Shown here piece by piece: positions 39,075 to 51,378 of a stretch of 64,000 nucleotides of DNA. Source of the stretch: an uncultured Gammaproteobacteria bacterium (lineage in GTDB: Bacteria > Patescibacteriota > Patescibacteriia > SG8-24 > DYFX01). The DNA is taken from positions 1,525 through 65,524 of the forward strand of contig CAYOJH010000006.1 of NCBI GenBank assembly GCA_964404275.1, in the 5' to 3' direction. A program made the translations under genes and the position numbers. The notes beneath the pieces were generated by a model. That model made no database searches, had not been told where the DNA came from, and was given only the letters and a program-made list of their open reading frames with translations. The first letter of the stretch is position 1; each line of letters opens with the position of its first letter.

Positions 39075-39076
39075 AG

Positions 39077-40891
39077 TCAGGAGGTTTTGCGTCCTGACTT
39101 TTTCCGAAGGCTGTGGAGGAGGAGCGTGGCGGCAAGCAAGCCGGCCGCGACGATGCTCCACGCGGGAACGCCTTCAGCGGGTCCTGCGCCCGTGTTCGGC
39201 AATTTCGGAGCGGCGGCGGCCACGACAACCGTGGCAATCGCGAAGTCGCGCACGGTCATGCCGTTCGCTTCGCCGGTGGCGATGGCGGTATTGGTCGTGG
39301 TCTTCGCCAGCATCGCTTGGCAGGTATAGGTCCACGTTTCGGAAGGATCAAGCTTGTTATCTCCGTTGGTATCGCCGGAGATACGCACCATCGGCGCGCA
39401 GGTGTCGTCGTTGAGCTGGACATTGCTAAGCGCGATCGTGCCGGGGTTGCTGACTTTTTCCGTGTAGGTGATCAGGCCGCCTTTCGCGCCCAAGGCCAGC
39501 GGGCTCGGAAGTTTCGTGACATGGATCAGCGGCGGCACGACAGGCGCGCCGACGACGACCGTTGCGCTGGCAAGATCGGTCGCGCTGATGCCGTTGGCCC
39601 AACCGGTCGCGACGACCGTGTTCGTATGGGTTTGCGTCAAGGTGGTCGTGCAGCTGTAGATCCACGTTTCGTTCACGTCAAGCTTCGCATCATGGTTGAG
39701 ATCGCCGGAGTTCAAGACAATGGGAATGCAGCTGTCGCCGACCATCGTGACGTCCGTGACGGGAACCGTGCCGACGTTACGAAGCGTGTAGGTGTACGTC
39801 ACCGATCCGGGACCGTTCGGCAGGGCCAGCGGACTCGGGACCTTGACGACGTCGATCAGCGGCGGCACGGGCGGAGTGACGACGGGTGCGCCGATGTCGT
39901 TATTCGTGATGATGCAGAAGCGGATATCGCCCGGATTGAGGTTCAAGCGGCCGTCGGCGTCGCAATCGCCAGAAAAAGATTGCGTGTAGCGCGGATCGCT
40001 CGTTTCCGTCACGGCATAGACGCCGGCCGGGGCGGGGAAGTCATACGTGGCGCCGGAAGAGACGGAGATCCCGTTCACGAACAACGGGAAGTCCGCGATG
40101 GTCTTAGTGCCGCCGTTATCATTGATAACTTTTTTGATGACGCCGATCGTACCCGAGTGGCTGCCGCCGGTTGAAACGGGCGTCACGGGAGCTGCGCAGG
40201 TCGGAACCGTGACGGTGTCGGTATTCGTCGTGACCGTGCCGCCAAAAGCCAAGGCTCGCCCTGTCCAGTTGGTGTTGGCGCCCACGGTGATGCCCGAGGC
40301 GTCGATGTCCGTACCGAAGAAGGTCGTATTGGCCGCGAGCGTCGTGGCCTGGGTCGGCGTCCAGAAGACGTCACACGCCGAAGCGCCGCTCAGCGTGACG
40401 ACGGCGCCGGCCGTCGATGTCAGTGCGCCCACGGGCCTGAAAATATAGGTTCCCGTGCCATTCAGCGTCAAAGGACCACCGACATCCATTGCTCCGTTGC
40501 TGCAATAGACGCCAGGCGCATAGACGCCGATCGGACCATGGGTCGTATCCGTGGAAAGATCGATCGCGCCGGCCGCGAACGTGAAGGTGCAGGGCTGGGA
40601 AGCCAACGCCGTGGAGGCATTACCTTGATCGGTACCTGCCGTCGAGTACGGAGCGCCGGACCCATAATTCGCATGCGTGCCCAGGGGGGCAACGGCCGGA
40701 GGCGTTGTGAACCCGACGTCGCCATTGATCGTGGTCGTCGTCGTGTTCGTGTAGGTGCTCGCCAGAACACCGTAGCTTGCCGCCGCTCCCAGCGAAGGCG
40801 ACGTGGCCGCAAGCGCGGCGACGGGACCGAATAGGCTGAATAGTAAAGCCAGAGCTGCTACGCCGCTCCCAACCCTTCGAAAAGTTTTCAT
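39077..40891 (-). CDS. LPXTG-anchored cell-surface repeat protein (Cna-B-like + DUF11-like repeats)
   Basis: Signal peptide; repeat modules as above; C-terminal LPNTG + hydrophobic segment + RKKSGRKTS = canonical sortase sorting signal. Confidence 0.75.
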   Translation of the reverse strand: MKTFRRVGSGVAALALLFSLFGPVAALAATSPSLGAAASYGVLASTYTNTTTTTINGDVGFTTPPAVAPLGTHANYGSGAPYSTAGTDQGNASTALASQPCTFTFAAGAIDLSTDTTHGPIGVYAPGVYCSNGAMDVGGPLTLNGTGTYIFRPVGALTSTAGAVVTLSGASACDVFWTPTQATTLAANTTFFGTDIDASGITVGANTNWTGRALAFGGTVTTNTDTVTVPTCAAPVTPVSTGGSHSGTIGVIKKVINDNGGTKTIADFPLFVNGISVSSGATYDFPAPAGVYAVTETSDPRYTQSFSGDCDADGRLNLNPGDIRFCIITNNDIGAPVVTPPVPPLIDVVKVPSPLALPNGPGSVTYTYTLRNVGTVPVTDVTMVGDSCIPIVLNSGDLNHDAKLDVNETWIYSCTTTLTQTHTNTVVATGWANGISATDLASATVVVGAPVVPPLIHVTKLPSPLALGAKGGLITYTEKVSNPGTIALSNVQLNDDTCAPMVRISGDTNGDNKLDPSETWTYTCQAMLAKTTTNTAIATGEANGMTVRDFAIATVVVAAAAPKLPNTGAGPAEGVPAWSIVAAGLLAATLLLHSLRKKSGRKTS

Positions 40892-41025
40892 GCGCGTCTT
40901 ATATAGACGCCACGACGCATGCGGAACTTAAGTGTTCGGCGACGCCCCATGGCAACTAAGCATTACCCAGTTGTCAAGTAATTGATTTAATCTTAGCACA
41001 TTTTTCAGACCCTGTGTGTGAATAA
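40892..41025 (-). promoter_or_regulatory. conserved ~110-nt upstream leader/promoter element, copy 1 (paralog of 43599..43725)
   Basis: Shares blocks (aaatgtgctaaga/tta, tcaattacttgaca, ggtaatgc, gccgaacacttaagttccgca, agacgcgc-ATG) with region upstream of gene 41517..43598; contains TTGACA. Confidence 0.4.
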
Positions 41026-41040
41026 CTATTCTGTTCAGCT

Positions 41041-41520
41041 CTATTTTAGAGGCTTTGTCTCGCCGATTGCCTCATCGGCCGTATCCGCGTCAGCTTCCGC
41101 CTTCGTGCGATGGATGCGGCCGTCGATATGATTCGGCGGCGCGTAGACCGTATAGAGCTTGAGCGCTTCGGCGCCGGTGTTTTTGAAATTATGTTTCGTG
41201 CCCGCGGTCACGACGACGACATCGCCGGGGCCGATCGGGAACGGCTTGTCATTGAGGTATCCCGTGCCCGTTCCCGAAATGAAGAAGAGCGTCTGTTCAG
41301 TATACGTGTGCGTTTCTTCGCCGACCTCGCCGCCGGGCGGAATGCTCATGACCACCAACTGGCTATTCGGACCGGTGAAGACGACGCGGCGGAAATAGTC
41401 GTTTTCCTGCGCCTGCGCGAGAATGTTGCCGTGATAGCTCATGGGAATGTGGGTGGGAGAGCTCGCGCAGCCCGTGCCGAGAAGCAGGAGGCCGGCGAGA
41501 AGAATAAGAAGGCGTTTCAT
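41041..41520 (-). CDS. cupin domain lipoprotein
   Basis: Lipobox LLGTGCASS; cupin motifs (GEVGEETHTYTEQ...PGDVVVVTAGTKHNFKNTG). Confidence 0.6.
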   Translation of the reverse strand: MKRLLILLAGLLLLGTGCASSPTHIPMSYHGNILAQAQENDYFRRVVFTGPNSQLVVMSIPPGGEVGEETHTYTEQTLFFISGTGTGYLNDKPFPIGPGDVVVVTAGTKHNFKNTGAEALKLYTVYAPPNHIDGRIHRTKAEADADTADEAIGETKPLK

Positions 41521-43598
41521 TGTTTTGCGATCCGCCGGTGAAGAATCAAACCGCTGACAACGATGATGGCGAGGAGCAAAAGGGCCGTGATCAACCCGTC
41601 CAGAGGCGTGGCAAAGAGCTCCAAGATGATCAAGCGGACCTTCTGCGTGAATGGAGTTTTTTTCGAGGCGTCGGCCGAAGTCGTTTCAGACGTTGAGACC
41701 GTTGATGGATGAACGGCATCGGTCCCCGTACTCGGAAGTTTCGATTCCGGCATCAGCTTGGACTTTGTCGCAAGATTGAACACGCCGGTCGCCGGCAAGC
41801 CGACGTCTCTTTGATATCTGATGAGGGCGGCGCGCGTGAGCGTTCCGAAATAGCCTTTCGCGACGCGCAACGGCATGGTCAGGAACCCGTCGCGCTCGAG
41901 CGCGGTCTGGAGCGCCGCGACATCCGCGCCTCGCGCGCCCAGCTTGAGAGACTGATACAGGATCGGGGCAAGGATATCGGCGTTTTCCGGCACGGCGTCG
42001 GTGAAGACCACGCGCCGTTGCGGGTAGGTGCCGTTGACCTGGTTCCAAACCCCTTCGCAGGTAATGAGATTCAGGTGCGCGAGGCCGTCGTTCGACGTAA
42101 AGACGGTCGTGGCATCGGCGTTTCTGTCGAACAGGCTGATGGTTCGAACGACGAAGGCAAGCGTTTCGCCTTTATCGTTGACGACGTAGACGATATCGCC
42201 CGCTTTGAGCTTGTCGAGGTCGTAGAAGACGAACGGCACGCCCTTATTGATGCCGAAGTGTCCGCCGATCACGGCGCTGCCTTCCTGGCCGGGATGCGGG
42301 CCGAGCGCGAACCAGGCGACGTTTTCCGAACCCGCCGGGACGTCCATTCTTCCGTCGGGCGTGATCAGCGCGTCCTCGATCGCGGAATCGACGCCGATCG
42401 TCGGAATCTTGAGGCGGACGGGAAGTCCCTGCGGAATGCCGCCCGGATCGCGGATGCTGGAATAGGCGATTTGATTCGAAAGAGATCCCGTGATCGGAAA
42501 TTTCGCCACGGGAAATTTCCAACCGAAGGCGAGGTCAGATGAAACCTGGGGTTCTGCAATCTGATTGCGTCGGGGCGACAAGAAGAAGTACAATCCGCCG
42601 CCCAAGATGGCGGCGAGCACAATGATAGACAGCACTCTTAAGGAGCGTTTGAAGCTCTTTCGCGCTTTCCCGGTCTTGCGCTTCCGCGTGAGCAGCAACA
42701 GGAGAAGGAGGATCGCCAAGACCAAGGACATGATTCCCCACAGAACGATTTTCGACCCGGCGCCGAGTCCGGTCAGCGGAAATTTCGGGACATCCTGATT
42801 CGAAAAGCCGGGAACGAGGCTCCTGACCATGACGGTCAGAGCGAAGTCGTCCACCGCCCGCAAGCCGTTCGCGAACGCCGTCACGTGCACCGTGTTGGTC
42901 GTCGTCTGCTTCAAGTTCGCCGTGCACGTGTAGATCCAGACCTCGTTCGTGTCCAGGAGGCTGTTGCCGTTCGTGTCTCCTAATTTTCCCGACATCGCGC
43001 TGCACTTGTCATCGACGATGGTGACGTTGCTCAGCGGGACAGCGCCAGGGTTGTTGACTCTGTAGGTGAAGGTGATCGGACCGCCCTCGGCCGGCAGGGA
43101 AAGCGGATAGGCGACTTTGGTGACGTTGATGACGCTGACGAGCGGAGCGGGATTCGCGGAGCCGACGACGACGGTCGTATACGCCTTGTGCGTAGCGGTG
43201 ACGCCGTTGGCGCTGCCGGTGACCGTGGCCGTGCTTTGCGTCGTTGCGGAAAGCGTCGTCGTGCAGGTATAGCGCCAGGTTTCGCCGTACTCGAGTCTGC
43301 CATCCCCGTTATCGTCGCCGTCATGAAAGGCGACGGCGCCACAGGCGTCATCGACGACATGCACGTCCGTCAGCGCGATCTCCTGAAGAAAATTCTTCAC
43401 CGCGTAGTTGTACGTGACCTTGCCGCCCGCTTGAGGCAAGACCAACGGGTCGGGCACCGACGTGATGCCGATCAATGGCACGTATAAGACGCTGCCGCTT
43501 CCTTGCGCGCCGGCCGCAAACGCAGCGATCGGACCGATCAAAAGAGATACGAAAAAAAGAGCCGCAATGGCCCGTGAACCCGTTTTATTTGTATGCAT
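41517..43598 (-). CDS. fusion protein: surface repeat domains + sorting-signal-like TM segment + sortase catalytic domain + C-terminal PG_binding_1 domain
   Basis: ATG at 43598 (MHTNKTG) with signal peptide; two DUF11-like repeats; KFPLTG + hydrophobic + TRKRKTGKARK; second TM; sortase motifs (IGGHFG, LNLITCEG, RRVVFTD); C-terminal LKLGARGADVAALQTALERDGFL...GYFGTLTRAALIRYQRDVGL. Confidence 0.65.
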   Translation of the reverse strand: MHTNKTGSRAIAALFFVSLLIGPIAAFAAGAQGSGSVLYVPLIGITSVPDPLVLPQAGGKVTYNYAVKNFLQEIALTDVHVVDDACGAVAFHDGDDNGDGRLEYGETWRYTCTTTLSATTQSTATVTGSANGVTATHKAYTTVVVGSANPAPLVSVINVTKVAYPLSLPAEGGPITFTYRVNNPGAVPLSNVTIVDDKCSAMSGKLGDTNGNSLLDTNEVWIYTCTANLKQTTTNTVHVTAFANGLRAVDDFALTVMVRSLVPGFSNQDVPKFPLTGLGAGSKIVLWGIMSLVLAILLLLLLLTRKRKTGKARKSFKRSLRVLSIIVLAAILGGGLYFFLSPRRNQIAEPQVSSDLAFGWKFPVAKFPITGSLSNQIAYSSIRDPGGIPQGLPVRLKIPTIGVDSAIEDALITPDGRMDVPAGSENVAWFALGPHPGQEGSAVIGGHFGINKGVPFVFYDLDKLKAGDIVYVVNDKGETLAFVVRTISLFDRNADATTVFTSNDGLAHLNLITCEGVWNQVNGTYPQRRVVFTDAVPENADILAPILYQSLKLGARGADVAALQTALERDGFLTMPLRVAKGYFGTLTRAALIRYQRDVGLPATGVFNLATKSKLMPESKLPSTGTDAVHPSTVSTSETTSADASKKTPFTQKVRLIILELFATPLDGLITALLLLAIIVVSGLILHRRIAKQ

Positions 43599-43725
43599 GC
43601 GCGTCTCATGACGGCCGGCGCGTCGTGCAGAACTTAGACGTTCGGCGGCACGCGGCAGCGAGGCATTACCTTGCTGCCAAGTAATTGACTTAAGATTAGC
43701 ACATTTTATAGGCATCGACAAAAAA
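43599..43725 (-). promoter_or_regulatory. conserved upstream leader/promoter element, copy 2
   Basis: See copy 1; same block order and spacing relative to ATG. Confidence 0.4.
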
Positions 43726-43742
43726 AGACCTTCCATGAAGGA

Positions 43743-43759
43743 AAGTCTCTTTTGGTAGC
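43743..43759. repeat. left direct repeat (att-like) GTCTCTTTTGGTAGCCC
   Basis: Matches 51294..51310 GTCGCTTTTGGTAGCCC (16/17); right copy overlaps tRNA-Glu 3-prime end incl. CCA. Confidence 0.5.
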
Positions 43760-43883
43760 CCGGACCACTGAAATGTGGAACGAAATCATGACGGACCTCA
43801 AGGCGTGGACTGTGTTTGGTAGGGACTTGAGGGCTACTGCCGCAGCAGCTTGATAAGACACTGCCACGGGGGAATGGAAGAGG

Positions 43884-45398
43884 TTACTGCGCCGATGAAA
43901 CAACCTCGTTAAGAACGCGCCAGATTGCGATCATGGCCTCGGTATCTCGACCGCAATACTTTTTAAGGTCGGCAGCGATTTTCGCTTTTACCTCGTCGGT
44001 CTGCCCTTCAAAAATCATCCGGTACCAAGCATCCATTGCCGCGCCACCATCCTGAATTTCCAGCTCTTTGTAAGTTAGCGTGGGTACTAACACGGGTAAT
44101 ACTTTCTTTATCGATGTTCTCCCCCGGAAATCCGGATGTACATGGAACTGCTTCTGAAAAATTTCCATCAAATCATAAATGCGAGCATTGATATCAGACA
44201 AGAATGAATCGTGCTGCGGATTTCTCTCCGCAAGCTGAGAGTTGATCTTCCTTTCAAAGGGCTTATACCACACGATAATGGTACCGCTTTCCCCAATAGT
44301 CCCCTGTAGCTTATCGATGATGGCCTCTGACGGGTCTGTTGCTTCCTCGTGCAAGTACTCGAAATGCTCAAAATCAGCATCCGGGCCACTCAGTCTATCC
44401 AAAGAAAATTGGAATGGTATCTGTTGATATGGCTTATAGCCCTTAAACAGCGGGATCGCTGGCGCGTAACTTTCATAGTCAAGAAAATACAACGGGAAGG
44501 CTAGCGAAGAAAGCTCACGTTCGATGGCATCCTTGTCGATGATTGCCTTTTGAGTCTTGTGGGCAATGGCCTGCATTTTCTGAATATCCGACAAAGAAAA
44601 CTCATCCGGCACATCCTTAATGTCGAAGATTCCGTCTTCAACTAAACTCTCCAACTTTTTCTTACTGATCCTCGATAAGTCATGCACCGAGTATTCAGGT
44701 ACCTGCGGATGGGAGTAGCAAAAAGTTGAGCACTGGGAATTCCTGCCGACATACAGGCATTCACAGGATAGGGCGCTCTCATCAAGTTGGGTCAGCGCCT
44801 CTCTCGCTCGATCCATTCGTGCTTTTACATCCTCCATCCTGTCAGCAACCTTTTCGGTCACATCCTCCATCTCGAAGAGCTCTGAAAGTGAGATTTCGTC
44901 ACCACGAACGTACTCTTTGTTCAGGTGAATGATTTTGATTTGCCCAATTTTTATACCCACTGATTGGAGAATGCGTGCCTGAAAGGATGCGTCATCGATA
45001 TGGTCCCGACCATCCTCCCCTTCGTTCAAAGAATTGGTCCCTTTGACCTCGTATAGATTCCAGCACCCGTGATCCTCATCGAACTCCAAAACGTCGTTAC
45101 GCGCCAAAAAACCGTCGTGAATGAAAGTCGCTTGGAAAAGCGCTTTGGAGCCATGACCCATCAACTCTTCCGTCCTCTTTGCGGCAGCCTCGCCCGACTC
45201 CTCGATTAAAATGCCTTCGGGAAAAAGCTTCCTCGCCCATTGTTCAACAAGGTTTCCTTTTGCCAACAGACCTCGCTCAAATTCTGAGAGGGAGAACATT
45301 GAGCTCAAGTCAGGCTTGTGCACCTTAAGCCACGCGTTCTTTCCGCACGCGCTATATTCGAGAAACAGGGTTTTTGTGAGGTATTTCATTTGATCCAT
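43884..45398 (-). CDS. Cas4/RecB-like PD-(D/E)xK nuclease with Fe-S Cys cluster and C-terminal domain of unknown function (DUF2779-like architecture)
   Basis: Probable start MDQMKYL at 45398; N-terminal Cys (YSACGK), D...EVK nuclease motif (ARNDVLEF...NLYEVKGT), CECLYVGRNSQCSTFC cluster (C-x-C-x9-C-x3-C); ~250-aa C-terminal region unassigned. Confidence 0.65.
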   Translation of the reverse strand: MDQMKYLTKTLFLEYSACGKNAWLKVHKPDLSSMFSLSEFERGLLAKGNLVEQWARKLFPEGILIEESGEAAAKRTEELMGHGSKALFQATFIHDGFLARNDVLEFDEDHGCWNLYEVKGTNSLNEGEDGRDHIDDASFQARILQSVGIKIGQIKIIHLNKEYVRGDEISLSELFEMEDVTEKVADRMEDVKARMDRAREALTQLDESALSCECLYVGRNSQCSTFCYSHPQVPEYSVHDLSRISKKKLESLVEDGIFDIKDVPDEFSLSDIQKMQAIAHKTQKAIIDKDAIERELSSLAFPLYFLDYESYAPAIPLFKGYKPYQQIPFQFSLDRLSGPDADFEHFEYLHEEATDPSEAIIDKLQGTIGESGTIIVWYKPFERKINSQLAERNPQHDSFLSDINARIYDLMEIFQKQFHVHPDFRGRTSIKKVLPVLVPTLTYKELEIQDGGAAMDAWYRMIFEGQTDEVKAKIAADLKKYCGRDTEAMIAIWRVLNEVVSSAQ

Positions 45399-45450
45399 GC
45401 TCGTACGATAGGGTTTTTGTGTATACTTAGTCAAAACACAGGCCCTACCG

Positions 45451-48400
45451 ATGGATAACCCTGCCATTCCGCTAAAAGTGAAACTGCTCTGGAAGGCATC
45501 AAAGCCTGCCGATTTTGATTTGTACAAGGCTGCGCTCGAATGGAGTCTTGTTGATCCGATAATCATTGAAAACCGAGACGACCTTAAGTCCGAGTATCTT
45601 TGGCGCGACAAAATAAAGCCATACCACCATCAAGTCACAAATCTAATCACTTTTTGTCGTCGTCTCCCGGTTACACTTCTCGCAGATGACGTTGGTTTGG
45701 GTAAAACCATCAGCGCTGGCTTGATAGCCAGTGAACTCATGACGCGTGATCGTGTTTCCAAGATTTTGATTGTCTGCCCCAAACTGCTGATGAATCAGTG
45801 GAGCGAGGAATTGGAACAAAAGTTTGGCATTGCGTCGACAACTGCCATTGGTAAGACTCTCATAAAGGCGAAGCCGCCGAAGGATGTCGGGGCGGTAATA
45901 ACAACCTACACATCCGCGAAACTGTATTTAGACGACCTCGAAGACGCGGGTTATCAAATGTTGATTCTTGATGAGGCGCATAAACTTCGCAATCTATACG
46001 GTGTCGATCCGACACCTCAAGTAGCAACTCGTTTTAGAAAAGCTCTGAAGGACAGGCTGTTTAGATACGTCCTGATGCTAACAGCTACGCCAATTCAGAA
46101 TCGCCTTTGGGACTTGTATTCACTTATAGACCTATTGACCGTAGCTCGTGGACACGAGAATCCATTTGGTAGTGAAGGGATTTTTGCGCGTAAGTTTATT
46201 GATGACGATCGAACGCAGGCGCGTCGTCTTAACTTAGGCGCAAAGGATGAATTCCGCTCGATCATTTACCAGTACATGTCGCGTGTTCGGCGCGGTGACG
46301 CGCAGCTATATTTTCCTGAAAGGAAAGTTCTGCTCAAGTCCGTAGCGCCAACCGCAGAGGAAAGCGAGCTGATTGGAATTATTGCGGAACCAATTCAGGA
46401 GTTGAACCGTTTGGGACAAATATCGGTTCTTCAGGCCCTCATCAGCAGCCCTGATGCTTTGGCGGCCCAGCTTAGAACGATGGCACGAAACGAAACCATA
46501 CCAGCGGAGCTTGCGACTCGCGTCCGGGAGGTCGTCAAGAAAATGAAGACGACAGCGAAGATGCAGGGCTTGGGATCATTGGTTGAAAAACTTAGAAAGG
46601 AGCGTCCCGAAGACTGGCGGATGGTAGTCTTCACGACTCGCAGGGAAACCCAAACGACGATTCAGGCCTTCTTGGAAGGGCAGGGCATCGCTTGTGGGGT
46701 TATCAATGGGGATTCCGGGCGACGAAACCAAGAGACGATCAATAATTTTAAATGCTACCCTCCCCAGATTAACGTAATCATTTCTACCGAAGCCGGGTCC
46801 GAGGGCGTTAACTTACAGGCCGCAAACGTCCTTGTTAACTACGATCTTCCGTGGAATCCGATGGTGGTGGAGCAGCGCATTGGCCGTATTCAACGCCTTG
46901 CGTCTGAGCACAAGACCGTCTCCATTTTCAATATCATCCTAAAGGGTACTTTCGAGGAGTATATAGTCGGAAGGTTGATGGAAAAACTTCAGATGGCCTC
47001 CCAAGCCATTGGTGATGTTGAGTCGTTGCTTCAGGCGTCGGGAATGGAAGAGGGGGAGGGAGAAATCACTTCATTTGAGGAGCAAATCCGTCGGCTGGTT
47101 ATCGAGTCATTGGCTGGGAAAGATGTTGAAGAAGCCACCCGGATGGCAGAAAAAAGCATCGAACACGCAGAGGCCGAACTCGATCGCGAGGAGAAAAATA
47201 TTGATTCGATGTTGGGCGGTATGGGTGATGTTGTGGGAGTCGATCCGTATCCTCCGAAATTGACCCCGGTCAATCACTCAATGGGACTTCGTGAGTTCGT
47301 GCTTGGCGCACTAGAAGCTCAGGGCGAAAAAGTAACGGCCCAGCCGAACGGTTTGTACGTCTCAGAATCCCATGGTCAAAAGGAACTGTTTCGTTTTGAT
47401 AATGAAGTTGCTGATCCTGAAACGACCAGTACCTTATATGCCCCCGGAAGTCCGGCATTTGAGCGTCTGGTGAATCGTTGTACCAGCCGCGGTTATCACA
47501 CGGTAAACGATGTCGATATAGAACCGCTAAAAAAGGCGATGGATATCGCGGGCGGTTGGGCTAAAGCATTTGATGGCCGATTTGATTCGGCTGCTCCGTT
47601 GGCGGTGTATAGGAATTTTGAAGGTTCGGCAATCATCAGGGTTCATGCAACGGTGGCTCATGACAGCTATGAGCGTCTCGTGGAGTCTGATTGTGCAATA
47701 AAAATGGATCATGACTTGGGCAAACTCGGTCTAGAGCCTCTCCATGCTTCGATTAGCGACCCGCACAAAGTTGGGTTGGATACGGATTGCCTGATTGATA
47801 AGGCATTCCATGATCCCGACATATCAGAATTTTGCCGTTTCTACGGTGAGCGCTTGGAGCAGGAGCTCAAGGCTGTAGGTGATGATGAGCGCAAAAGAAA
47901 AAAGACCGTCGATGACTTCACTCCCCGCATTGCCGTGGAACTCGTGGGGCTAAATGGCAACATCCATCGCCGAATTAAGTTGAACACCAAATATCGAATT
48001 GATGAGGGGGAGTACGAAAGTTCATTGACTGTCATTCCGAATAGCGAAGAAGTTATTGAGGCACCCGAGATCAAGAAGTGCGAGAAAACTGGGCGGCATG
48101 CCCCAGCCGACTGCTTTGGGATTTGTGAAATTAGCAAATTACAAGTGCTGAGGCACCTATTGGTTGCCTCAGACATTTCAGACAGGCAGGCTCTTCCAGA
48201 GCACGTGATTAAGTGCTCATACTCGGGCAAAAAGGTGCTGATCGATGAGGCAGCAAAATCGGACATCTCTGGACATTTTGTGACTGCATCATTGCTGCTT
48301 ACGTCAGCGATTAGCGGAAAGAAGGGGGAGCCAACATACTTTGGTCAATGTGAGTTCACCTCGGTGACAGCCCTCAAGGACGAGCTTTTAACGAGTGAAG

Positions 48401-49149
48401 TATCCGGAAAGCTCTACAGGTCCGATGAGCAGCTCCGCTCTACGGTTTCGGGTAAATCCGGACATCGCCAAGAGTTTATAAAATGCGCGGTAACCAGTCA
48501 GCCCTTACTGAGGGAAGAAGCAGAGCAATGCGAAGTAACTGGCACGCTAGTTGCGCCCGGCATCCTCGAAGAGTGTTCGGTGACGAAGAAAAAGGTCTTG
48601 CCGAGCGAACTGGCGAAAAGCGAATTCAGCGGAAAAATGGCACTCCAAAAGTACTTCGTTTCTAGTTCAATTTCAGATGGCAAAATTCTTGAGTCCGAAG
48701 CCGTTCGATCTTCGAAGGGAAAATATTGCTCCCCCGCAGAAGTAAAACCGTGCGCATGGAGCGGTCTTAAATACCACCCTGATGATTTAGAGATATGTCA
48801 CCTGTCGGGTCTTTCAGTTCACTCCGTATACGTTACACCCGATGGCCCTCCAAGAATTACGTCACTGGCCCGACTCCTTGATGGAACGCTCAGAAAAGCT
48901 GATGGGACTGAATATTGGCAGAAAATCGTTGATGCTCTAGCTGGCTCGGTTGGCGGCGTTCTCAAGGTGGATGCGGCGGAGTTTTCTCCGGACGGCACGC
49001 TACTCGCGGTTTGCTTGGAATCAACGAAATGGTTGGTGAAGACTCGCTATTTGGGCCTCGTGTTTTCATTGCGACAAAACTCGGCTACGGGTCGAATCGT
49101 GTCTGGAAAGCGAAAGGATCATAGGTGGATTGACGACCTCGTAATTTAA
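45451..49149 (+). CDS. SNF2/Rad54-family (SF2) helicase, 1232 aa, with long C-terminal extension containing degenerate Cys/Ser-Gly-Lys tandem repeats
   Basis: Motif I DDVGLGKT, II ILDEAHKLRN, III LMLTATPIQNRLWDLYSLIDLL, helicase-C motifs YDLPWNPMVVEQRIGRIQRL; residues ~880-1125 form ~15 tandem ~15-aa repeats. Confidence 0.85.
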   Translation: MDNPAIPLKVKLLWKASKPADFDLYKAALEWSLVDPIIIENRDDLKSEYLWRDKIKPYHHQVTNLITFCRRLPVTLLADDVGLGKTISAGLIASELMTRDRVSKILIVCPKLLMNQWSEELEQKFGIASTTAIGKTLIKAKPPKDVGAVITTYTSAKLYLDDLEDAGYQMLILDEAHKLRNLYGVDPTPQVATRFRKALKDRLFRYVLMLTATPIQNRLWDLYSLIDLLTVARGHENPFGSEGIFARKFIDDDRTQARRLNLGAKDEFRSIIYQYMSRVRRGDAQLYFPERKVLLKSVAPTAEESELIGIIAEPIQELNRLGQISVLQALISSPDALAAQLRTMARNETIPAELATRVREVVKKMKTTAKMQGLGSLVEKLRKERPEDWRMVVFTTRRETQTTIQAFLEGQGIACGVINGDSGRRNQETINNFKCYPPQINVIISTEAGSEGVNLQAANVLVNYDLPWNPMVVEQRIGRIQRLASEHKTVSIFNIILKGTFEEYIVGRLMEKLQMASQAIGDVESLLQASGMEEGEGEITSFEEQIRRLVIESLAGKDVEEATRMAEKSIEHAEAELDREEKNIDSMLGGMGDVVGVDPYPPKLTPVNHSMGLREFVLGALEAQGEKVTAQPNGLYVSESHGQKELFRFDNEVADPETTSTLYAPGSPAFERLVNRCTSRGYHTVNDVDIEPLKKAMDIAGGWAKAFDGRFDSAAPLAVYRNFEGSAIIRVHATVAHDSYERLVESDCAIKMDHDLGKLGLEPLHASISDPHKVGLDTDCLIDKAFHDPDISEFCRFYGERLEQELKAVGDDERKRKKTVDDFTPRIAVELVGLNGNIHRRIKLNTKYRIDEGEYESSLTVIPNSEEVIEAPEIKKCEKTGRHAPADCFGICEISKLQVLRHLLVASDISDRQALPEHVIKCSYSGKKVLIDEAAKSDISGHFVTASLLLTSAISGKKGEPTYFGQCEFTSVTALKDELLTSEVSGKLYRSDEQLRSTVSGKSGHRQEFIKCAVTSQPLLREEAEQCEVTGTLVAPGILEECSVTKKKVLPSELAKSEFSGKMALQKYFVSSSISDGKILESEAVRSSKGKYCSPAEVKPCAWSGLKYHPDDLEICHLSGLSVHSVYVTPDGPPRITSLARLLDGTLRKADGTEYWQKIVDALAGSVGGVLKVDAAEFSPDGTLLAVCLESTKWLVKTRYLGLVFSLRQNSATGRIVSGKRKDHRWIDDLVI

Positions 49150-49195
49150 GTGAACGATCCTTGACGCGGGGTATGTAGGCGATAGGCTGGTCTGC

Positions 49196-49453
49196 ATGAA
49201 CCCCAGAACGTCACCCACTTTTGCGAATGACGGATACCGAAGGATTTTTTGTAATGCCTGCGGTCACTTTATCGGGGAGACTCATCTTGGCGAAAAACGG
49301 GAGAGGCAGCTCCGTTGTAAGTTCTGCGGCACGACCGTCAATTTACGACCGCCCCTGAAAGTGGAGCACGATAGCCAGAGGTACATCGAATTTGGCCCTC
49401 AAGCCGCCTGCTTCACGGCTGATTTGACTGACCCGCCTCGTCAGGGTAATTAG
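49196..49453 (+). CDS. small zinc-ribbon protein
   Basis: CNACGH...CKFCG (CxxC-x20-CxxC) in 85-aa ORF directly downstream of helicase. Confidence 0.45.
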   Translation: MNPRTSPTFANDGYRRIFCNACGHFIGETHLGEKRERQLRCKFCGTTVNLRPPLKVEHDSQRYIEFGPQAACFTADLTDPPRQGN

Positions 49454-49521
49454 TATCAATCGACCCGTAACAACCGATTTCGGGCTATAAAGGCACCCCC
49501 TTCCTAGGCGGGTGTGAAGAG

Positions 49522-49567
49522 AGCCCGGCAGAAGCCTGTTTTTTGGCTTCTAGCCGGGCTTTTTTTA
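49522..49567. terminator. strong rho-independent terminator
   Basis: agcccggcagaagcc-tgtttttt-ggcttctagccgggct followed by ttttttt. Confidence 0.55.
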
Positions 49568-49613
49568 TTGGTCACCCCTTGGGGCAGACACCACAAAATA
49601 CCCGCTTTCTGCC

Positions 49614-49814
49614 ATGCTTTCCCTAGCACAAGCAAGGAAAATCGATCCTAGTTTGGAGGATGTGTCCGACGAAGAATTGTTGGGCATTCTTGAGGCGTTG
49701 TATGCATTTGGTCGGGTGGCACTAGATACTTGGTCCACTAAGCAGCATGTTTCCAATAATCCCCTTGGGGTCCAGACTGAAGCAGTAGCACCCGGTATGC
49801 TGCATAGAACATGA
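49614..49814 (+). CDS. small ORF translationally coupled to recombinase (possible accessory/directionality factor)
   Basis: 66-aa ORF whose stop overlaps recombinase ATG (ATGA); no motif; may be spurious. Confidence 0.2.
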   Translation: MLSLAQARKIDPSLEDVSDEELLGILEALYAFGRVALDTWSTKQHVSNNPLGVQTEAVAPGMLHRT

Positions 49815-51343
49815 GCCAAATTTTGAATAAAACCTGCGTCATTTATTGTCGTGTCTCTTCGAAAGAGCAGGTTGAAGGGACGAGTTTGGAAACCCAACAA
49901 CGGCTTTGTCGAGAATACGCTGATCAGCAAGGTTGGTTGGTTTCCGAGATTTTCATGGAACTTGGTGAATCAGCAAAGACGGCTGATCGAACTGAATTTG
50001 CCAAGGCAATCAACTACTGCACGAGCAAAAAAGGTCGCACTTCGTATTTTGTGGTCTATAAGCTCGACCGCTTTAGTCGGAAAGCTGAAGATCATCTCAT
50101 GATCCGTGCTGTTTTGAGTAAGGCGGGTACTGAATTGCGTTCAGTTACCGAGCCAATCAACGAAACTGCAACGGGAAAACTGATGGAGACGGTCATTGCG
50201 GGATTTGCTGAATTCGACAACAACGTAAGGACTGAGCGAACCAAGAACGGGATGATTCAGCGAGTGCAGGAAGGTATTTGGGTATGGACTCCACCACTCG
50301 GATACCACAAACCCGTCAGGGGTAAAAAGACAAACATCGTTCCCGACCCTCTCGTGGCCCCGCTCATAAGGGCTGGCTTTGAGGAATACGCCAAAGGGGG
50401 ACGCACGTACAAGGCTTTGGCGGCCTTCTGGACGCGACAGGGCCTGCTCACGAAGCGAGGAAGGCCAATCAAGCTTCAAGAGGTTCAGAAGATGCTTAGG
50501 AACCCGGTTTATTGCGGCACCATCAGGGCCTTTGGGGGAGAATGGAACGGCGGCTTCGAACCCATTGTCTCCCGGCAGTTGTTTCTGGCTTGTCAGGACA
50601 AAGTAGGGAATTCGAGCTGGTCGGCACCACGCCTGACTGACAATGCGACGTTCCCACTTCGTAAGCTGGTCATCTGCTCTGAGTGTGGGACGACGCTGAC
50701 CGGGAGTTCAACAAGGGGGAGGCAGGGAAAGCGCTACCCTTACTACCATCATTCCAAGAAAAACTGCACGAGGCCGAAAACCATCCCCAAAGAAAAATTC
50801 GAAAAGGCTTTTCTTGAGTGTCTGGCCAAGGTTGAGCCAAACAAGAAATACGAGCACCTATTCAAGGCGGTCATTACTGATATTTGGAAAACAAACCACA
50901 AGAATCTTGATGACCAAAAATCATCCGTTCGTAGGAACATCGAAAAGTTGGAAATTGAAAAACAGAGGATTTTCGAGTTGCATCGTGCAGGCACATATTC
51001 AGATCAGGATTTCAAAGAACAGCGTGCTATCGTGGCGGGGAAGATGGAGGTCCAATACAGCTTGATCGAGGAGTACAGGGGAGAGGAATTCAATATGGAT
51101 GAGGCCTTGGAATACTGCTTCGATTTTGTTGGCAAGGCGACCAAAACTTGGTTGGAGCTAGAGGGCAACTACCCAGCCCGAATCCGTTTTCAAAACCTTA
51201 TTTTCAAGGCGCGGCTGACTTTTGACGGGGAGGAATTTGGAAACACGAAATTATCGCCAATCTTCCAACTAAAAGCGACCTCTCGCGGGGAGAAGTCGCT
51301 TTTGGTAGCCCCAAGGGGAGTCGAACCCCTATTTACTCCGTGA
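49811..51343 (+). CDS. large serine recombinase (resolvase/invertase N-terminal catalytic domain + recombinase domain + zinc ribbon)
   Basis: CVIYCRVSSKEQ catalytic Ser motif, YKLDRFSRK, recombinase domain, zinc-ribbon ICSECGTTLTG...C; 3-prime ~40 nt of ORF read through the tRNA-Glu 3-prime half, so true C-terminus uncertain. Confidence 0.85.
   Translation: MSQILNKTCVIYCRVSSKEQVEGTSLETQQRLCREYADQQGWLVSEIFMELGESAKTADRTEFAKAINYCTSKKGRTSYFVVYKLDRFSRKAEDHLMIRAVLSKAGTELRSVTEPINETATGKLMETVIAGFAEFDNNVRTERTKNGMIQRVQEGIWVWTPPLGYHKPVRGKKTNIVPDPLVAPLIRAGFEEYAKGGRTYKALAAFWTRQGLLTKRGRPIKLQEVQKMLRNPVYCGTIRAFGGEWNGGFEPIVSRQLFLACQDKVGNSSWSAPRLTDNATFPLRKLVICSECGTTLTGSSTRGRQGKRYPYYHHSKKNCTRPKTIPKEKFEKAFLECLAKVEPNKKYEHLFKAVITDIWKTNHKNLDDQKSSVRRNIEKLEIEKQRIFELHRAGTYSDQDFKEQRAIVAGKMEVQYSLIEEYRGEEFNMDEALEYCFDFVGKATKTWLELEGNYPARIRFQNLIFKARLTFDGEEFGNTKLSPIFQLKATSRGEKSLLVAPRGVEPLFTP
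51294..51310. repeat. right direct repeat (att-like) GTCGCTTTTGGTAGCCC overlapping tRNA 3-prime end
   Basis: See left repeat. Confidence 0.5.
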
Positions 51344-51378
51344 AAGGGAGTTGTCCTAGCCATTAGACGATGAGGCCG
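51303..51378 (-). tRNA. tRNA-Glu (anticodon UUC)
   Basis: Manual fold of minus strand: acceptor GGCCUCA/UGGGGCU (with G1-U72 and U5-G68 wobbles), D-arm GUCU-AAUGGCUA-GGAC, anticodon arm ACUCC-CUUUCAC-GGAGU (UUC), T-arm AGGGG-UUCGACU-CCCCU, discriminator A, encoded CCA. Confidence 0.6.

What the first reader, a model, noticed from the sequence alone, without database searches (positions are those of the whole stretch)
43884..49149. Divergent Cas4-like Fe-S nuclease + giant SNF2 helicase on an integrative island: candidate undescribed defense module
Two large genes share a 52-bp divergent promoter region inside a lower-GC island. (1) A ~505-aa protein with a PD-(D/E)xK core (NDVLEF...YEVKGT), an N-terminal Cys and a CECx9Cx3C cluster as in Cas4/AddB Fe-S nucleases, plus an unassigned ~250-aa C-terminal domain. 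(2) A 1232-aa SNF2/Rad54-type helicase with all SF2 motifs and a ~700-aa C-terminal extension. Helicase+nuclease pairs on mobile islands are the hallmark of anti-phage systems. I cannot place this combination of Fe-S Cas4-like nuclease, SNF2 helicase and repeat tail in any named system (DISARM, Zorya, Hachiman, Gabija etc. differ in domain content). No methyltransferase is present, which argues for an abortive-infection/Hachiman-like nuclease-helicase rather than an R-M-like mechanism.
Basis: partly seen in the sequence, partly recalled or inferred. Interest (0 to 1): 0.85.

Follow-up and report, generated by a model that had tools for sequence, protein, structure and literature searches.

The report
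Mobile SNF2 helicase–dual nuclease gene pair
A 7.5-kb mobile island inserted in a tRNA gene carries only an integrase plus a conserved pair of genes, a DNA-translocating SNF2 motor with a new repeat domain and a two-headed DNA exonuclease. The pair recurs together across several bacterial phyla and looks like an unnamed, untested DNA-degrading defence module.

Summary
A nuclease gene (43884-45398, -) and a 1232-aa SNF2 helicase gene (45451-49149, +) diverge from a 52-61 bp spacer inside a 7,550-bp low-GC island. The island has 13-nt direct repeats, lies at the 3' end of tRNA-Glu, and carries a large serine recombinase.

The nuclease belongs to the described but uncharacterised DUF2779 family. 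It has a Cas4-like Fe-S PD-(D/E)xK domain, and its "unassigned" C-terminal half is a DEDDy 3'-5' exonuclease. Both catalytic sets are invariant.

The helicase's 700-aa tail has no Pfam or PDB match. It contains 17 in-register 15-residue beta-hairpin repeats and occurs only in this SNF2 family.

The pairing is real but clade-specific:
- In the window's helicase clade, 13 of 16 other loci have an adjacent Cas4-like plus RNase-H-like nuclease, either DUF2779 or the analogous TM0106 type.
- The four closest nuclease homologs all overlap a helicase stop codon.
- One in-frame fusion exists.
- Other helicase clades are solo, and the nuclease also pairs with Hhe-like and restriction enzymes.

No PADLOC or NCBIfam model assigns the pair to a named system. 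The helicase family is absent from the viral and plasmid collections searched.

Defence is the best reading, at about 0.5, but it is inferred and not shown. The abortive-infection/Hachiman-like mechanism has no support.

The parts
43749..43761 (.). Left copy of the 13-nt direct repeat CTTTTGGTAGCCC (attL core). It is the displaced original 3' end of tRNA-Glu, with its terminator hairpin just to the left (43718-43748).
   Evidence: Direct-repeat family D1. Sequence read. Terminator-like site 43741..43729 on the - strand.
43762..51311 (.). Integrated island of about 7,550 bp with low GC. Its content is the nuclease, the helicase, two small ORFs and a serine recombinase.
   Evidence: GC 0.46-0.50 against 0.57-0.66 elsewhere. 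Bounded by the direct repeats. The flanks are host genes: sortase and DUF7507 surface proteins on the left, tRNA-Glu and TsaD on the right.
43884..45398 (-). DUF2779-family dual nuclease gene (504 aa, or 501 aa if it starts at Met4 = 45389).
   Evidence: Pfam PF11074, E = 3e-38. More than 120 homologs at 50-67% identity. AF2 model with pLDDT 90 and pTM 0.84.
44694..45398 (-). N-terminal Cas4-like PD-(D/E)xK domain (res 1-235). It has D102, E117, K119 and Q140, plus four conserved Cys (C18, C212, C214, C223) for a putative Fe-S cluster.
43887..44513 (-). C-terminal DEDDy 3'-5' exonuclease domain (res 296-504; the Pfam DUF2779 match covers res 304-429), with D307, E309, D409, Y481 and D485.
45399..45450 (.). 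Divergent intergenic region of 52 bp (61 bp if the nuclease starts at Met4). It holds a sigma-70-like site for the nuclease gene (TTGACT-18-TATCGT, 45434..45405, - strand).
   Evidence: Sequence. Promoter scan; this is a consensus match only, and the region has no more such matches than shuffled sequence.
45451..49149 (+). SNF2-family helicase/translocase gene, 1232 aa.
   Evidence: Pfam SNF2-rel_dom, Helicase_C and ResIII. More than 100 full-length homologs at 48-64% identity across phyla.
45595..47040 (+). SNF2 ATPase core (res 49-530) with GLGKT, DEAH, TATP and QRIGRIQR.
   Evidence: Invariant columns in A1. Nearest solved relatives are SsoRad54-like 1z63 and RapA.
47041..48078 (+). Post-ATPase region (res 531-876): a coiled coil, a cystatin/NTF2-like alpha+beta domain with invariant D687, D689, D738, Y740, E741 and R742, a helical bundle and long beta-hairpins. 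It has no family assignment.
48079..48840 (+). Array of 17 in-register 15-residue beta-hairpin repeats (res 877-1130), with the pattern [CS]-x-x-[ST]-G-x9-10.
   Evidence: Register shown. Periodic strand pattern in the model. The copy number varies from 17 to at least 55 among homologs.
48841..49146 (+). C-terminal alpha+beta cap domain (res 1131-1232).
   Evidence: AF2 model. Conserved through the family.
49196..49453 (+). 85-aa ORF with CxxC...CxxC. It lies before the terminator-like hairpin at 49542-49558 and is of doubtful reality.
   Evidence: ORF list. No Pfam hit passes its cut-off. No homolog in 160 related loci. Hairpin.
49614..49814 (+). 66-aa ORF whose stop overlaps the recombinase start. 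It is a candidate directionality or regulatory factor.
   Evidence: ORF list. Called as a gene on the Logan contig. No Pfam hit.
49811..51343 (+). Large serine recombinase (510 aa). The ORF crosses the attR core and stops inside the tRNA gene.
   Evidence: Pfam Resolvase + Recombinase + Zn_ribbon_recom. phrog_95 integrase, E = 1e-88.
51299..51311 (.). Right copy of the 13-nt direct repeat (attR core).
51303..51377 (-). tRNA-Glu (anticodon ttc), the integration target. Its 3'-terminal 9 nt lie within the repeat.
   Evidence: ARAGORN.

Best explanation
The pair is a horizontally mobile two-gene DNA-targeting module, and it is the only cargo of a small serine-recombinase island.

Shown:
- The helicase is an intact SNF2-type ATPase, a family known as dsDNA translocases. 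It carries a family-specific C-terminal module that includes an expandable array of 15-residue beta-hairpin repeats.
- The nuclease combines an intact Cas4-like Fe-S PD-(D/E)xK site with an intact DEDDy 3'-5' exonuclease site.
- The two genes are inherited together in the window's clade, usually as an overlapping helicase-to-nuclease operon, and once as a single polypeptide.
- The nuclease slot can be filled by either of two only distantly related families with the same two-domain plan.

Inferred:
- The helicase and the nuclease act as a complex.
- The motor tracks along or loads onto target DNA, with the C-terminal module serving for recognition or docking.
- The motor feeds DNA ends or nicks to the nuclease, whose two active sites of opposite polarity digest both strands. 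This would resemble RecBCD/AddAB-type destruction of linear DNA.
- The biological role is defence of the host or island against phages or other invading DNA.
For: Module:
- The clade-specific pairing is 13/16 against 2/41, p = 2e-8.
- The closest nuclease homologs P0122-P0125 all lie directly downstream of a 1193-1240 aa SNF2 gene, overlapping it by 17-29 nt.
- Four more pairs occur in metagenome loci.
- DUF2779 is replaced by the TM0106/RNase_H_2 type in 6 loci.
- P0105 is an uninterrupted 1749-aa fusion seen in 2 samples.
- Helicase and nuclease distances correlate (Mantel r = 0.78, p = 2e-4).

Activity: all catalytic motifs are invariant, and the folds are confirmed.

Mobility and defence-like context:
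- The island has att repeats in a tRNA and low GC.
- Serine recombinases are close to the pair in L025, L042, L257, L258 and L259, and tblastn finds recombinase homologs within the 8-kb flanks of L001, L033 and L067.
- Neighbours include type ISP/IIG restriction-modification enzymes, HEPN, a diversity-generating retroelement (RT + bAvd) and Gabija-like genes.
- Elsewhere the same nuclease family sits beside Hhe/PDC-S37, type I and type IIG restriction enzymes and HerA.
- The helicase shares 48-64% identity across CPR, Acidobacteria, Nitrospira and Proteobacteria in non-syntenic contexts.
- The family is absent from 2.9 M viral contigs and 72,556 plasmids.

Precedent: SNF2 proteins with a nuclease do defend. 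HmaA alone protects against T4 (PMC11232893). ZorD and DrmD are further defence-system SNF2 proteins listed in that paper.
Against: - No experiment and no defence HMM supports a defence role. PADLOC has nothing for the nuclease.
- Immediate neighbours of the helicase are only modestly enriched in defence genes, and many are housekeeping genes.
- About 70% of helicase homologs have no adjacent nuclease.
- Most DUF2779 homologs have no such helicase. Some lie in conserved housekeeping synteny with rpoD and a DsbA-like gene. A Mycoplasma member is quasi-essential (PMC13621843).
- The helicase is unusually conserved for a defence gene, with roughly a quarter of its columns invariant.
- No trigger, target or self/non-self discrimination mechanism can be named.
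Confidence: 0.5

Rival explanations
1. The pair is a DNA repair or end-processing module, a helicase plus exonuclease analogous to MrfAB or AddAB/AdnAB. It would be carried by mobile islands as a fitness cargo rather than as immunity.
For: - DUF2779 members occur in housekeeping synteny with rpoD and a DsbA-like gene, and one is quasi-essential in minimal Mycoplasma.
- The helicase is very strongly conserved.
- Its nearest characterised relatives are Rad54-like and RapA proteins, which are not immune proteins.
Against: - The distribution is patchy and multi-phylum, and the contexts are non-syntenic.
- The pair is the sole cargo of a low-GC tRNA island.
- It recurs next to serine recombinases, restriction-modification enzymes, HEPN and Gabija-like genes.
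- The nuclease partner is swapped between families and lineages.
Confidence: 0.2
2. The pair serves the mobile element itself. Examples would be processing or replicating the excised island, promoting its recombination, or excluding competing elements, rather than protecting the host.
For: - The island contains nothing else besides the integrase and two small ORFs.
- The pair often sits next to serine recombinases and ParB-like or ParB-methylase genes.
Against: - Most helicase homologs, and several paired loci, have no recombinase or other element backbone within 8 kb.
- SNF2 proteins are not known as replicative helicases (established knowledge).
- The helicase family was not found in the phage or plasmid collections.
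Confidence: 0.12
3. The pair is a fragment or variant of an already named SNF2-containing system: DISARM, Zorya, Hma, BREX or Dpd.
For: The best PADLOC and NCBIfam hits of the helicase are BrxHI, DrmD, HmaA, ZorD and DpdE.
Against: - All these hits cover only the SNF2 core. NCBIfam scores are far below the equivalog cut-offs: DrmD 213 against 610, DpdE 173 against 500, ZorD 68 against 1500.
- None of the obligatory partners is in the 7.5-kb island.
- The nuclease has no PADLOC hit.
Confidence: 0.03
4. The two genes are unrelated neighbours that happen to lie side by side.
For: - In the window the genes are divergent rather than in an operon.
- Both families are often found without the other.
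Against: Clade-specific co-occurrence at p = 2e-8, overlapping operons in the closest relatives, a gene fusion and correlated divergence all argue against chance.
Confidence: 0.02

Closest known systems
DUF2779 / PF11074 family (for example MMSYN1_0389 of JCVI-syn3.0; RNase-H-like superfamily family F.17)
   Same: The window nuclease is a member (131 bits against a cut-off of 23.3). It has the same two-domain plan, a Cas4-like PD-(D/E)xK domain followed by a DEDD-type exonuclease, and the same catalytic D, E-x-K and DEDD(y) residues.
   Different: The window protein and its close relatives keep four conserved cysteines, whereas the Mycoplasma protein has only two. The family has no demonstrated function. 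Its pairing with an SNF2 helicase was not found in the literature searched.
Hma system HmaA (SNF2 helicase with a C-terminal NOV_C PD-(D/E)xK nickase; Halomonas meridiana)
   Same: An SNF2 ATPase is combined with a PD-(D/E)xK nuclease. HmaA alone protects against phage T4 and needs both activities (PMC11232893). HmaA is among the best PADLOC hits of the helicase (158 bits).
   Different: Here the nuclease is a separate protein of a different family with an extra DEDDy domain. There is no NOV_C domain and no HmaB or HmaC. The similarity is confined to the SNF2 core. The C-terminal repeat module is absent from HmaA's reported domain list.
Zorya ZorD and DISARM DrmD (SNF2 helicases of defence systems)
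   Same: They share the SNF2 core. The ZorD model is described as carrying an Mrr-like nuclease.
   Different: Scores are far below the equivalog cut-offs. ZorA/B/C and DrmA/B/C/methylase are absent from the island.
Hachiman (HamA nuclease + HamB helicase) and other two-gene helicase-nuclease defences such as Gabija
   Same: A two-gene helicase plus PD-(D/E)xK-type nuclease logic on mobile islands.
   Different: Going by established knowledge of those systems, which was not tested here beyond PADLOC, the helicase superfamily branch differs (SNF2 rather than Ski2-like or UvrD-like) and so does the nuclease family (DUF2779 rather than DUF1837 or OLD). No Ham or Gaj model is among the helicase's best 25 PADLOC hits, and the nuclease has none at all.
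Cas4 and Cas4-family accessory nucleases (CRISPR adaptation Cas4; Argonaute-associated ACE1)
   Different: No cas1/cas2, CRISPR or Argonaute genes are encoded in the island. The protein is about 2.5 times the size of Cas4 and has a fused DEDDy exonuclease.
RapA (bacterial RNA-polymerase-associated Swi2/Snf2 ATPase)
   Different: NCBIfam scores 114 against a cut-off of 576. Only about 50 residues precede the ATPase core, so there is no room for RapA's N-terminal domains. The repeat array and the nuclease partner are not RapA features.

Membership tests
Pfam DUF2779 (PF11074) | Score above the Pfam gathering threshold | tested here: met
   131.3 bits against 23.3, res 304-429 covering profile positions 1-126 of 126.
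Cas4/RecB-like Fe-S PD-(D/E)xK nucleases | Catalytic D...(D/E)-x-K residues | tested here: met
   D102, E117 and K119 (plus Q140) are invariant in 28 homologs.
Cas4/RecB-like Fe-S PD-(D/E)xK nucleases | One N-terminal and three C-terminal cysteines for a 4Fe-4S cluster | tested here: inconclusive
C18, C212, C214 and C223 are invariant, which is consistent with a cluster. Metal binding cannot be tested in silico.
Cas4/RecB-like Fe-S PD-(D/E)xK nucleases | Cas4-like fold | tested here: met
CRISPR-associated Cas4 proper | Encoded with cas1/cas2 and a CRISPR array | tested here: not met
   The island encodes only the nuclease, the helicase, two small ORFs and a recombinase.
DEDD (DnaQ-like) 3'-5' exonucleases | Exo I DxE, Exo II D and Exo III Y/H-x3-4-D residues, plus an RNase-H-like fold | tested here: met
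SNF2 family ATPases | SNF2-related N lobe plus Helicase_C, with motifs I, II, III and VI | tested here: met
   PF00176 89.5 bits and PF00271 67.2 bits. GLGKT, DEAH, TATP and QRxGRxxR are invariant.
DISARM (DrmD) | NCBIfam equivalog score, and presence of DrmA, DrmB and DrmC or a methylase | tested here: not met
   213 bits against a cut-off of 610, and 173 against 950. No such genes are in the island.
Zorya (ZorD) | ZorD equivalog score and ZorA/ZorB partners | tested here: not met
   68 bits against a cut-off of 1500. The partners are absent.
Hma (HmaA) | SNF2 plus a C-terminal NOV_C (PF13020) nuclease, with HmaB and HmaC | tested here: not met
   No PF13020 hit at E <= 0.01. The PADLOC HmaA match covers only the ATPase core. 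The partners are absent.
Hachiman | A HamA (DUF1837) nuclease with a HamB helicase | tested here: not met
   The nuclease is DUF2779 and has no PADLOC hit. No Ham model is among the helicase's best 25 PADLOC hits.
RapA | NCBIfam equivalog score | tested here: not met
   114 bits against a cut-off of 576.
Large serine recombinase integrative elements | Resolvase + Recombinase + zinc-ribbon domains, and element ends marked by a repeat at the target | tested here: met
   Pfam hits for all three domains. 13-nt direct repeats lie 7,550 bp apart at the tRNA-Glu 3' end. Excision was not tested.
Anti-phage defence system (generic) | Demonstrated protection against phage or plasmid | not testable with these tools
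   Only contextual evidence is available.

The most novel reading that the evidence does not exclude
The pair is an undescribed immune system that occurs across several bacterial phyla. An SNF2 translocase with a structurally new, expandable beta-hairpin repeat array recruits a dual-polarity exonuclease (Cas4-like Fe-S site plus DEDDy site) to destroy invading DNA. The DUF2779/TM0106-type nucleases would then be a shared 'plug-in' effector used by several helicase-type defences: this SNF2, Hhe/PDC-S37 and type ISP/type I enzymes.
Probability: 0.35. Interest if true: 0.7.

Novelty: new variant of a known kind. Interest (0 to 1): 0.55.

Why it matters
If the pair is a defence system, it adds a new helicase-nuclease architecture that current defence HMM sets miss. 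Several of the paired loci come from Patescibacteria (CPR) genomes, alongside Acidobacteria and Gammaproteobacteria.

It would also give a first functional context to DUF2779. That family is widespread and uncharacterised, and it includes a quasi-essential gene of the minimal cell JCVI-syn3.0.

The helicase's 700-residue tail has no solved-structure relative. Its 15-residue repeat array varies from 17 to at least 55 copies, which makes it a tractable structural and mechanistic puzzle.

The 7.5-kb island (integrase plus pair) is a ready-made minimal construct for cloning.

Tried and rejected
- **PADLOC, NCBIfam and PHROGs on both proteins.** There is no system-level assignment, only generic SNF2 hits.
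- **PDB sequence search with a nuclease profile.** No hit.
- **AFDB fold search.** The library was unavailable.
- **Viral contigs and plasmids.** No member of the helicase family was found.
- **Literature searches** for DUF2779, SNF2 plus Cas4-like, RecB-like, COG2251/TM0106 and DUF4011. No description of this pair turned up.
- **Immediate-neighbour defence enrichment around the helicase.** Weak: OLD/GajA in 2 and methylases in about 3 of 58 upstream neighbours. I therefore do not claim a strong 'defence island' signal for the family as a whole.
- **The 85-aa zinc-ribbon ORF as a third component.** Rejected as a conserved component, because it has no homolog in 160 related loci.
- **Logan contig L081 (7,335 bp) as an excised circle.** Rejected. 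It ends inside the integrase gene and about 150 bp beyond the nuclease stop, not at the att cores.
- **Host taxon.** Not determined, because I ran no further search on it.


Full report
**1. What is in the sequence**

The window has a clear compositional island. GC falls to 0.46-0.50 between about 44 and 51 kb, against 0.57-0.66 elsewhere. The island holds these features:
- a minus-strand ORF at 43884-45398, 504 aa from the first ATG;
- a plus-strand ORF at 45451-49149, 1232 aa;
- two small ORFs of 85 and 66 aa;
- a 510-aa large serine recombinase at 49811-51343, with the Resolvase, Recombinase and Zn_ribbon_recom domains;
- tRNA-Glu(ttc) on the minus strand at 51303-51377.

A 13-nt exact direct repeat, CTTTTGGTAGCCC, lies at 43749-43761 and 51299-51311. 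It sits inside a longer 44-nt repeat of 73% identity that includes a terminator hairpin on each side. The right copy contains the last 9 nt of the tRNA.

This is the classic signature of an element integrated into the 3' end of a tRNA gene. The element is about 7,550 bp. It is flanked by host genes: a sortase and DUF7507 surface-protein genes on the left, and tRNA-Glu and tsaD on the right.

The two large genes are 52 bp apart. The gap is 61 bp if the nuclease starts at Met4, where the N-termini of all homologs align.

**2. The nuclease**

Pfam assigns residues 304-429 to DUF2779, at 131 bits against a cut-off of 23.3. The literature already describes this family as a fusion of a Cas4-like PD-(D/E)xK domain with a DEDD-type RNase-H-like 3'-5' exonuclease. 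It has no known function (PMC13621843, PMC3985635).

In an alignment of 28 homologs at 49-67% identity, these residues are invariant:
- D102, E117, K119 and Q140 in the PD-(D/E)xK core;
- four cysteines, C18, C212, C214 and C223;
- the DEDDy set D307, E309, D409, Y481 and D485.

The protein is therefore a two-headed nuclease with both sites intact. The 'unassigned' domain of the finding is the exonuclease.

**3. The helicase**

Residues about 49-530 form a complete SNF2 ATPase. Pfam matches SNF2-rel_dom and Helicase_C, and GLGKT, DEAH, TATP and QRIGRIQR are invariant. The nearest solved relatives by sequence are the Sulfolobus Rad54-like enzyme and RapA, and they match only the core.

The remaining 700 residues have no Pfam hit. 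An AlphaFold2 model of residues 531-1232 (pLDDT 85.8) shows, in order:
- a coiled coil;
- small cystatin/NTF2-like alpha+beta domains;
- a helical bundle;
- a strikingly regular run of beta-hairpins.

The sequence of that run resolves into 17 in-register 15-residue repeats, [CS]-x-x-[ST]-G..., at residues 877-1130.

An exhaustive phmmer search of 1.84 billion representative proteins with the tail alone finds 584 clusters, 253 of them at E <= 1e-30. In almost all, the match starts at about residue 530 of a 1200-2100 aa protein. The tail is therefore specific to this SNF2 family. The repeat number ranges from 17 to at least 55.

More than 100 full-length homologs share 48-64% identity with the window protein. 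They come from Patescibacteria, Elusimicrobia, Acidobacteria, Nitrospirota and Alpha- and Gammaproteobacteria. A more distant planctomycete branch sits at about 37%.

**4. Are the two genes a unit?**

*Seen from the helicase.* Of 58 genome loci with a complete helicase, 10 have an immediately adjacent DUF2779 gene. Six have an adjacent TM0106/RNase_H_2-type gene. That type also combines a Cas4-like domain with an RNase-H-like exonuclease, but it is only distantly related (E = 5e-4).

On a neighbour-joining tree, the paired loci fall almost entirely in the clade that contains the window. There, 13 of 16 other members are paired, and a fourteenth keeps a nuclease fragment. Only 2 of 41 members are paired elsewhere (Fisher p = 2e-8).

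*Seen from the nuclease.* Only 4 of 80 metagenome loci have this helicase next to the nuclease, and 48 of those loci have enough flank to judge. However, the four closest homologs of the window nuclease (64-67% identity) all lie directly downstream of a 1193-1240 aa SNF2 gene and overlap it by 17-29 nt.

*Further support.* One protein, P0105 (1749 aa), is an uninterrupted fusion of a TM0106-type nuclease to a full-length helicase of this family. Its ORF is 5,250 nt and was seen in two samples. Across 18 pairs, helicase and nuclease divergence correlate (Mantel r = 0.78, p = 2e-4). Partners have nevertheless been shuffled: the window's nuclease and helicase have different nearest relatives. This fits the window's unusual divergent arrangement.

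*Conclusion.* The genes form a genuine functional module in this clade, with a replaceable nuclease slot. It is not an obligate partnership for either family.

**5. Context**

The pair recurs next to large serine recombinases (window, L025, L042, L257, L258, L259, with recombinase homologs also within the flanks of L001, L033 and L067). It often lies near tRNA genes. It also sits beside type ISP/IIG restriction-modification enzymes, a HEPN protein, a transposase and a diversity-generating retroelement.

Solo helicases lie beside Gabija-like OLD/UvrD pairs in five loci, but also beside plain housekeeping genes.

Where the nuclease family lacks this helicase, it often lies directly downstream of one of these:
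- Hhe/PDC-S37-like SF1 helicase-nucleases, in 8 loci; L100 scores 942 bits to PDC-S37;
- type IIG enzymes;
- type I restriction enzymes;
- a HerA-like ATPase.

In about 10 loci, however, the nuclease sits in conserved synteny with rpoD and a DsbA-like gene.

The helicase family is absent from 2.9 million viral contigs, where the best hits are 23-41% identical over the SNF2 core only. It is also absent from 72,556 plasmids. The nuclease has 12 weak viral hits.

**6. Comparison with known systems**

PADLOC gives no hit for the nuclease. For the helicase it gives only core-restricted hits to BrxHI, DrmD, HmaA, ZorD and DpdE. NCBIfam equivalog scores are far below their cut-offs: DrmD 213 against 610, DpdE 173 against 500, RapA 114 against 576, ZorD 68 against 1500. 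None of the partner genes of those systems is in the island.

The closest experimental precedent is HmaA. It is an SNF2 ATPase fused to a PD-(D/E)xK nickase, and it protects against T4 by itself (PMC11232893). Cas4-family accessory nucleases that assist another immune protein are also known, in the case of ACE1 with Argonaute (PMC12094033).

Literature searches found no description of an SNF2-DUF2779 pair.

**7. Interpretation**

*Shown:*
- an intact SNF2 motor with a family-specific, structurally unmatched tail;
- an intact dual nuclease;
- co-inheritance, operon overlap and fusion of the two genes;
- mobility on a tRNA-integrated serine-recombinase island.

*Inferred:*
- the two proteins work as a complex that couples ATP-driven DNA translocation to degradation of both strands;
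- the role is defence against invading DNA.

I put defence at about 0.5. The main rival is a repair or end-processing module, at about 0.2. It is favoured by the MrfB/Dna2-like folds, the housekeeping contexts of some DUF2779 genes and the strong conservation of the helicase. A function serving the element itself comes next, at about 0.12.

Nothing here supports an abortive-infection mechanism or a Hachiman-like one. How self DNA would be spared, with no methyltransferase present, is unexplained.

**8. Verdict**

The 'undescribed system' claim survives the tests available here, but it remains a contextual inference. The finding is a new variant of the helicase-plus-nuclease theme. It has two fresh elements:
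- the repeat-bearing SNF2 tail;
- the use of DUF2779/TM0106-type dual exonucleases as exchangeable partners.

Interest is moderate to good (0.55). It would rise if protection is demonstrated.

Noticed in passing
window 49811-51377: The serine-recombinase ORF runs across the attR core (51299-51311) and stops at 51343, inside tRNA-Glu. Its last ~11 codons are therefore tRNA-derived, and the C-terminus would change when the island excises.
   Followed up: partly
window 49196-49453: An 85-aa ORF with two CxxC pairs (zinc-ribbon-like) lies between the helicase stop and a terminator-like hairpin (49542-49558). It has no Pfam family and no homolog in 160 related loci, so it is probably not part of the conserved module.
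   Followed up: partly
window 49614-49814: A 66-aa ORF overlaps the recombinase start codon (ATGA) and was called as a gene on the Logan contig. It has no Pfam hit. It could be a recombination directionality factor or a regulator.
   Followed up: no
L086, L090, L096, L099, L100, L101, L107, L122 (genes upstream of the nuclease): In these metagenome loci the DUF2779 nuclease lies directly downstream, on the same strand, of large SF1 helicases. These helicases have DUF4011/AAA_11/AAA_12 domains with an MTES_1575 restriction-endonuclease domain or a Top1 zinc ribbon. L100 scores 942 bits to PADLOC PDC-S37 and 490 bits to Hhe. This may be a second, separate helicase-nuclease module using the same nuclease family.
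   Followed up: partly
L094, L110, L116, L137, L142, L145 and others: In about 10 loci the DUF2779 gene sits in a conserved block with rpoD (sigma-70) and a DsbA-like thioredoxin gene. This suggests a housekeeping role for some lineages of the family.
   Followed up: partly
Helicase homologs P0022, P0048, P0244, P0254, P0259: The 15-residue repeat array expands from 17 units (1232-aa proteins) to about 25 (1353 aa) and to at least 55 (2074-aa planctomycete proteins). The tail is a variable-length element.
   Followed up: partly
L006, L011, L014, L027, L044: Solo helicases of the other clade lie next to an OLD/GajA-like ATPase-TOPRIM gene, and in L006 and L044 also next to a second conserved ~480-aa gene that may be the UvrD-like partner. 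This is a Gabija-like neighbour.
   Followed up: partly
L001, L067, L103, L105 (upstream of the helicase): A ParB_N + N6_N4 DNA methyltransferase gene lies divergently upstream of the helicase-nuclease pair in L001. Homologous ~430-440-aa genes occupy the same position in L067, L103 and L105. In L001 and L067 two conserved unannotated genes (about 500 and 130 aa) lie further upstream. This looks like a shared mobile-element backbone with a cargo slot.
   Followed up: no
L081 / L162 (Logan SRR8931233 contig, 7,335 bp): An independent assembly of the same sample yields a contig that covers almost exactly the island (window ~43732-51066) and breaks near both ends. This may reflect island-present and island-absent variants in the population, or it may simply be an assembly artefact.
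   Followed up: no
window 37413-43736: The left flank encodes a sortase with a peptidoglycan-binding domain, and three large proteins with DUF7507 repeats. One of these has an ice-binding-like domain and one a SpaA-like domain. Together they look like a pilus or surface-protein locus.
   Followed up: no
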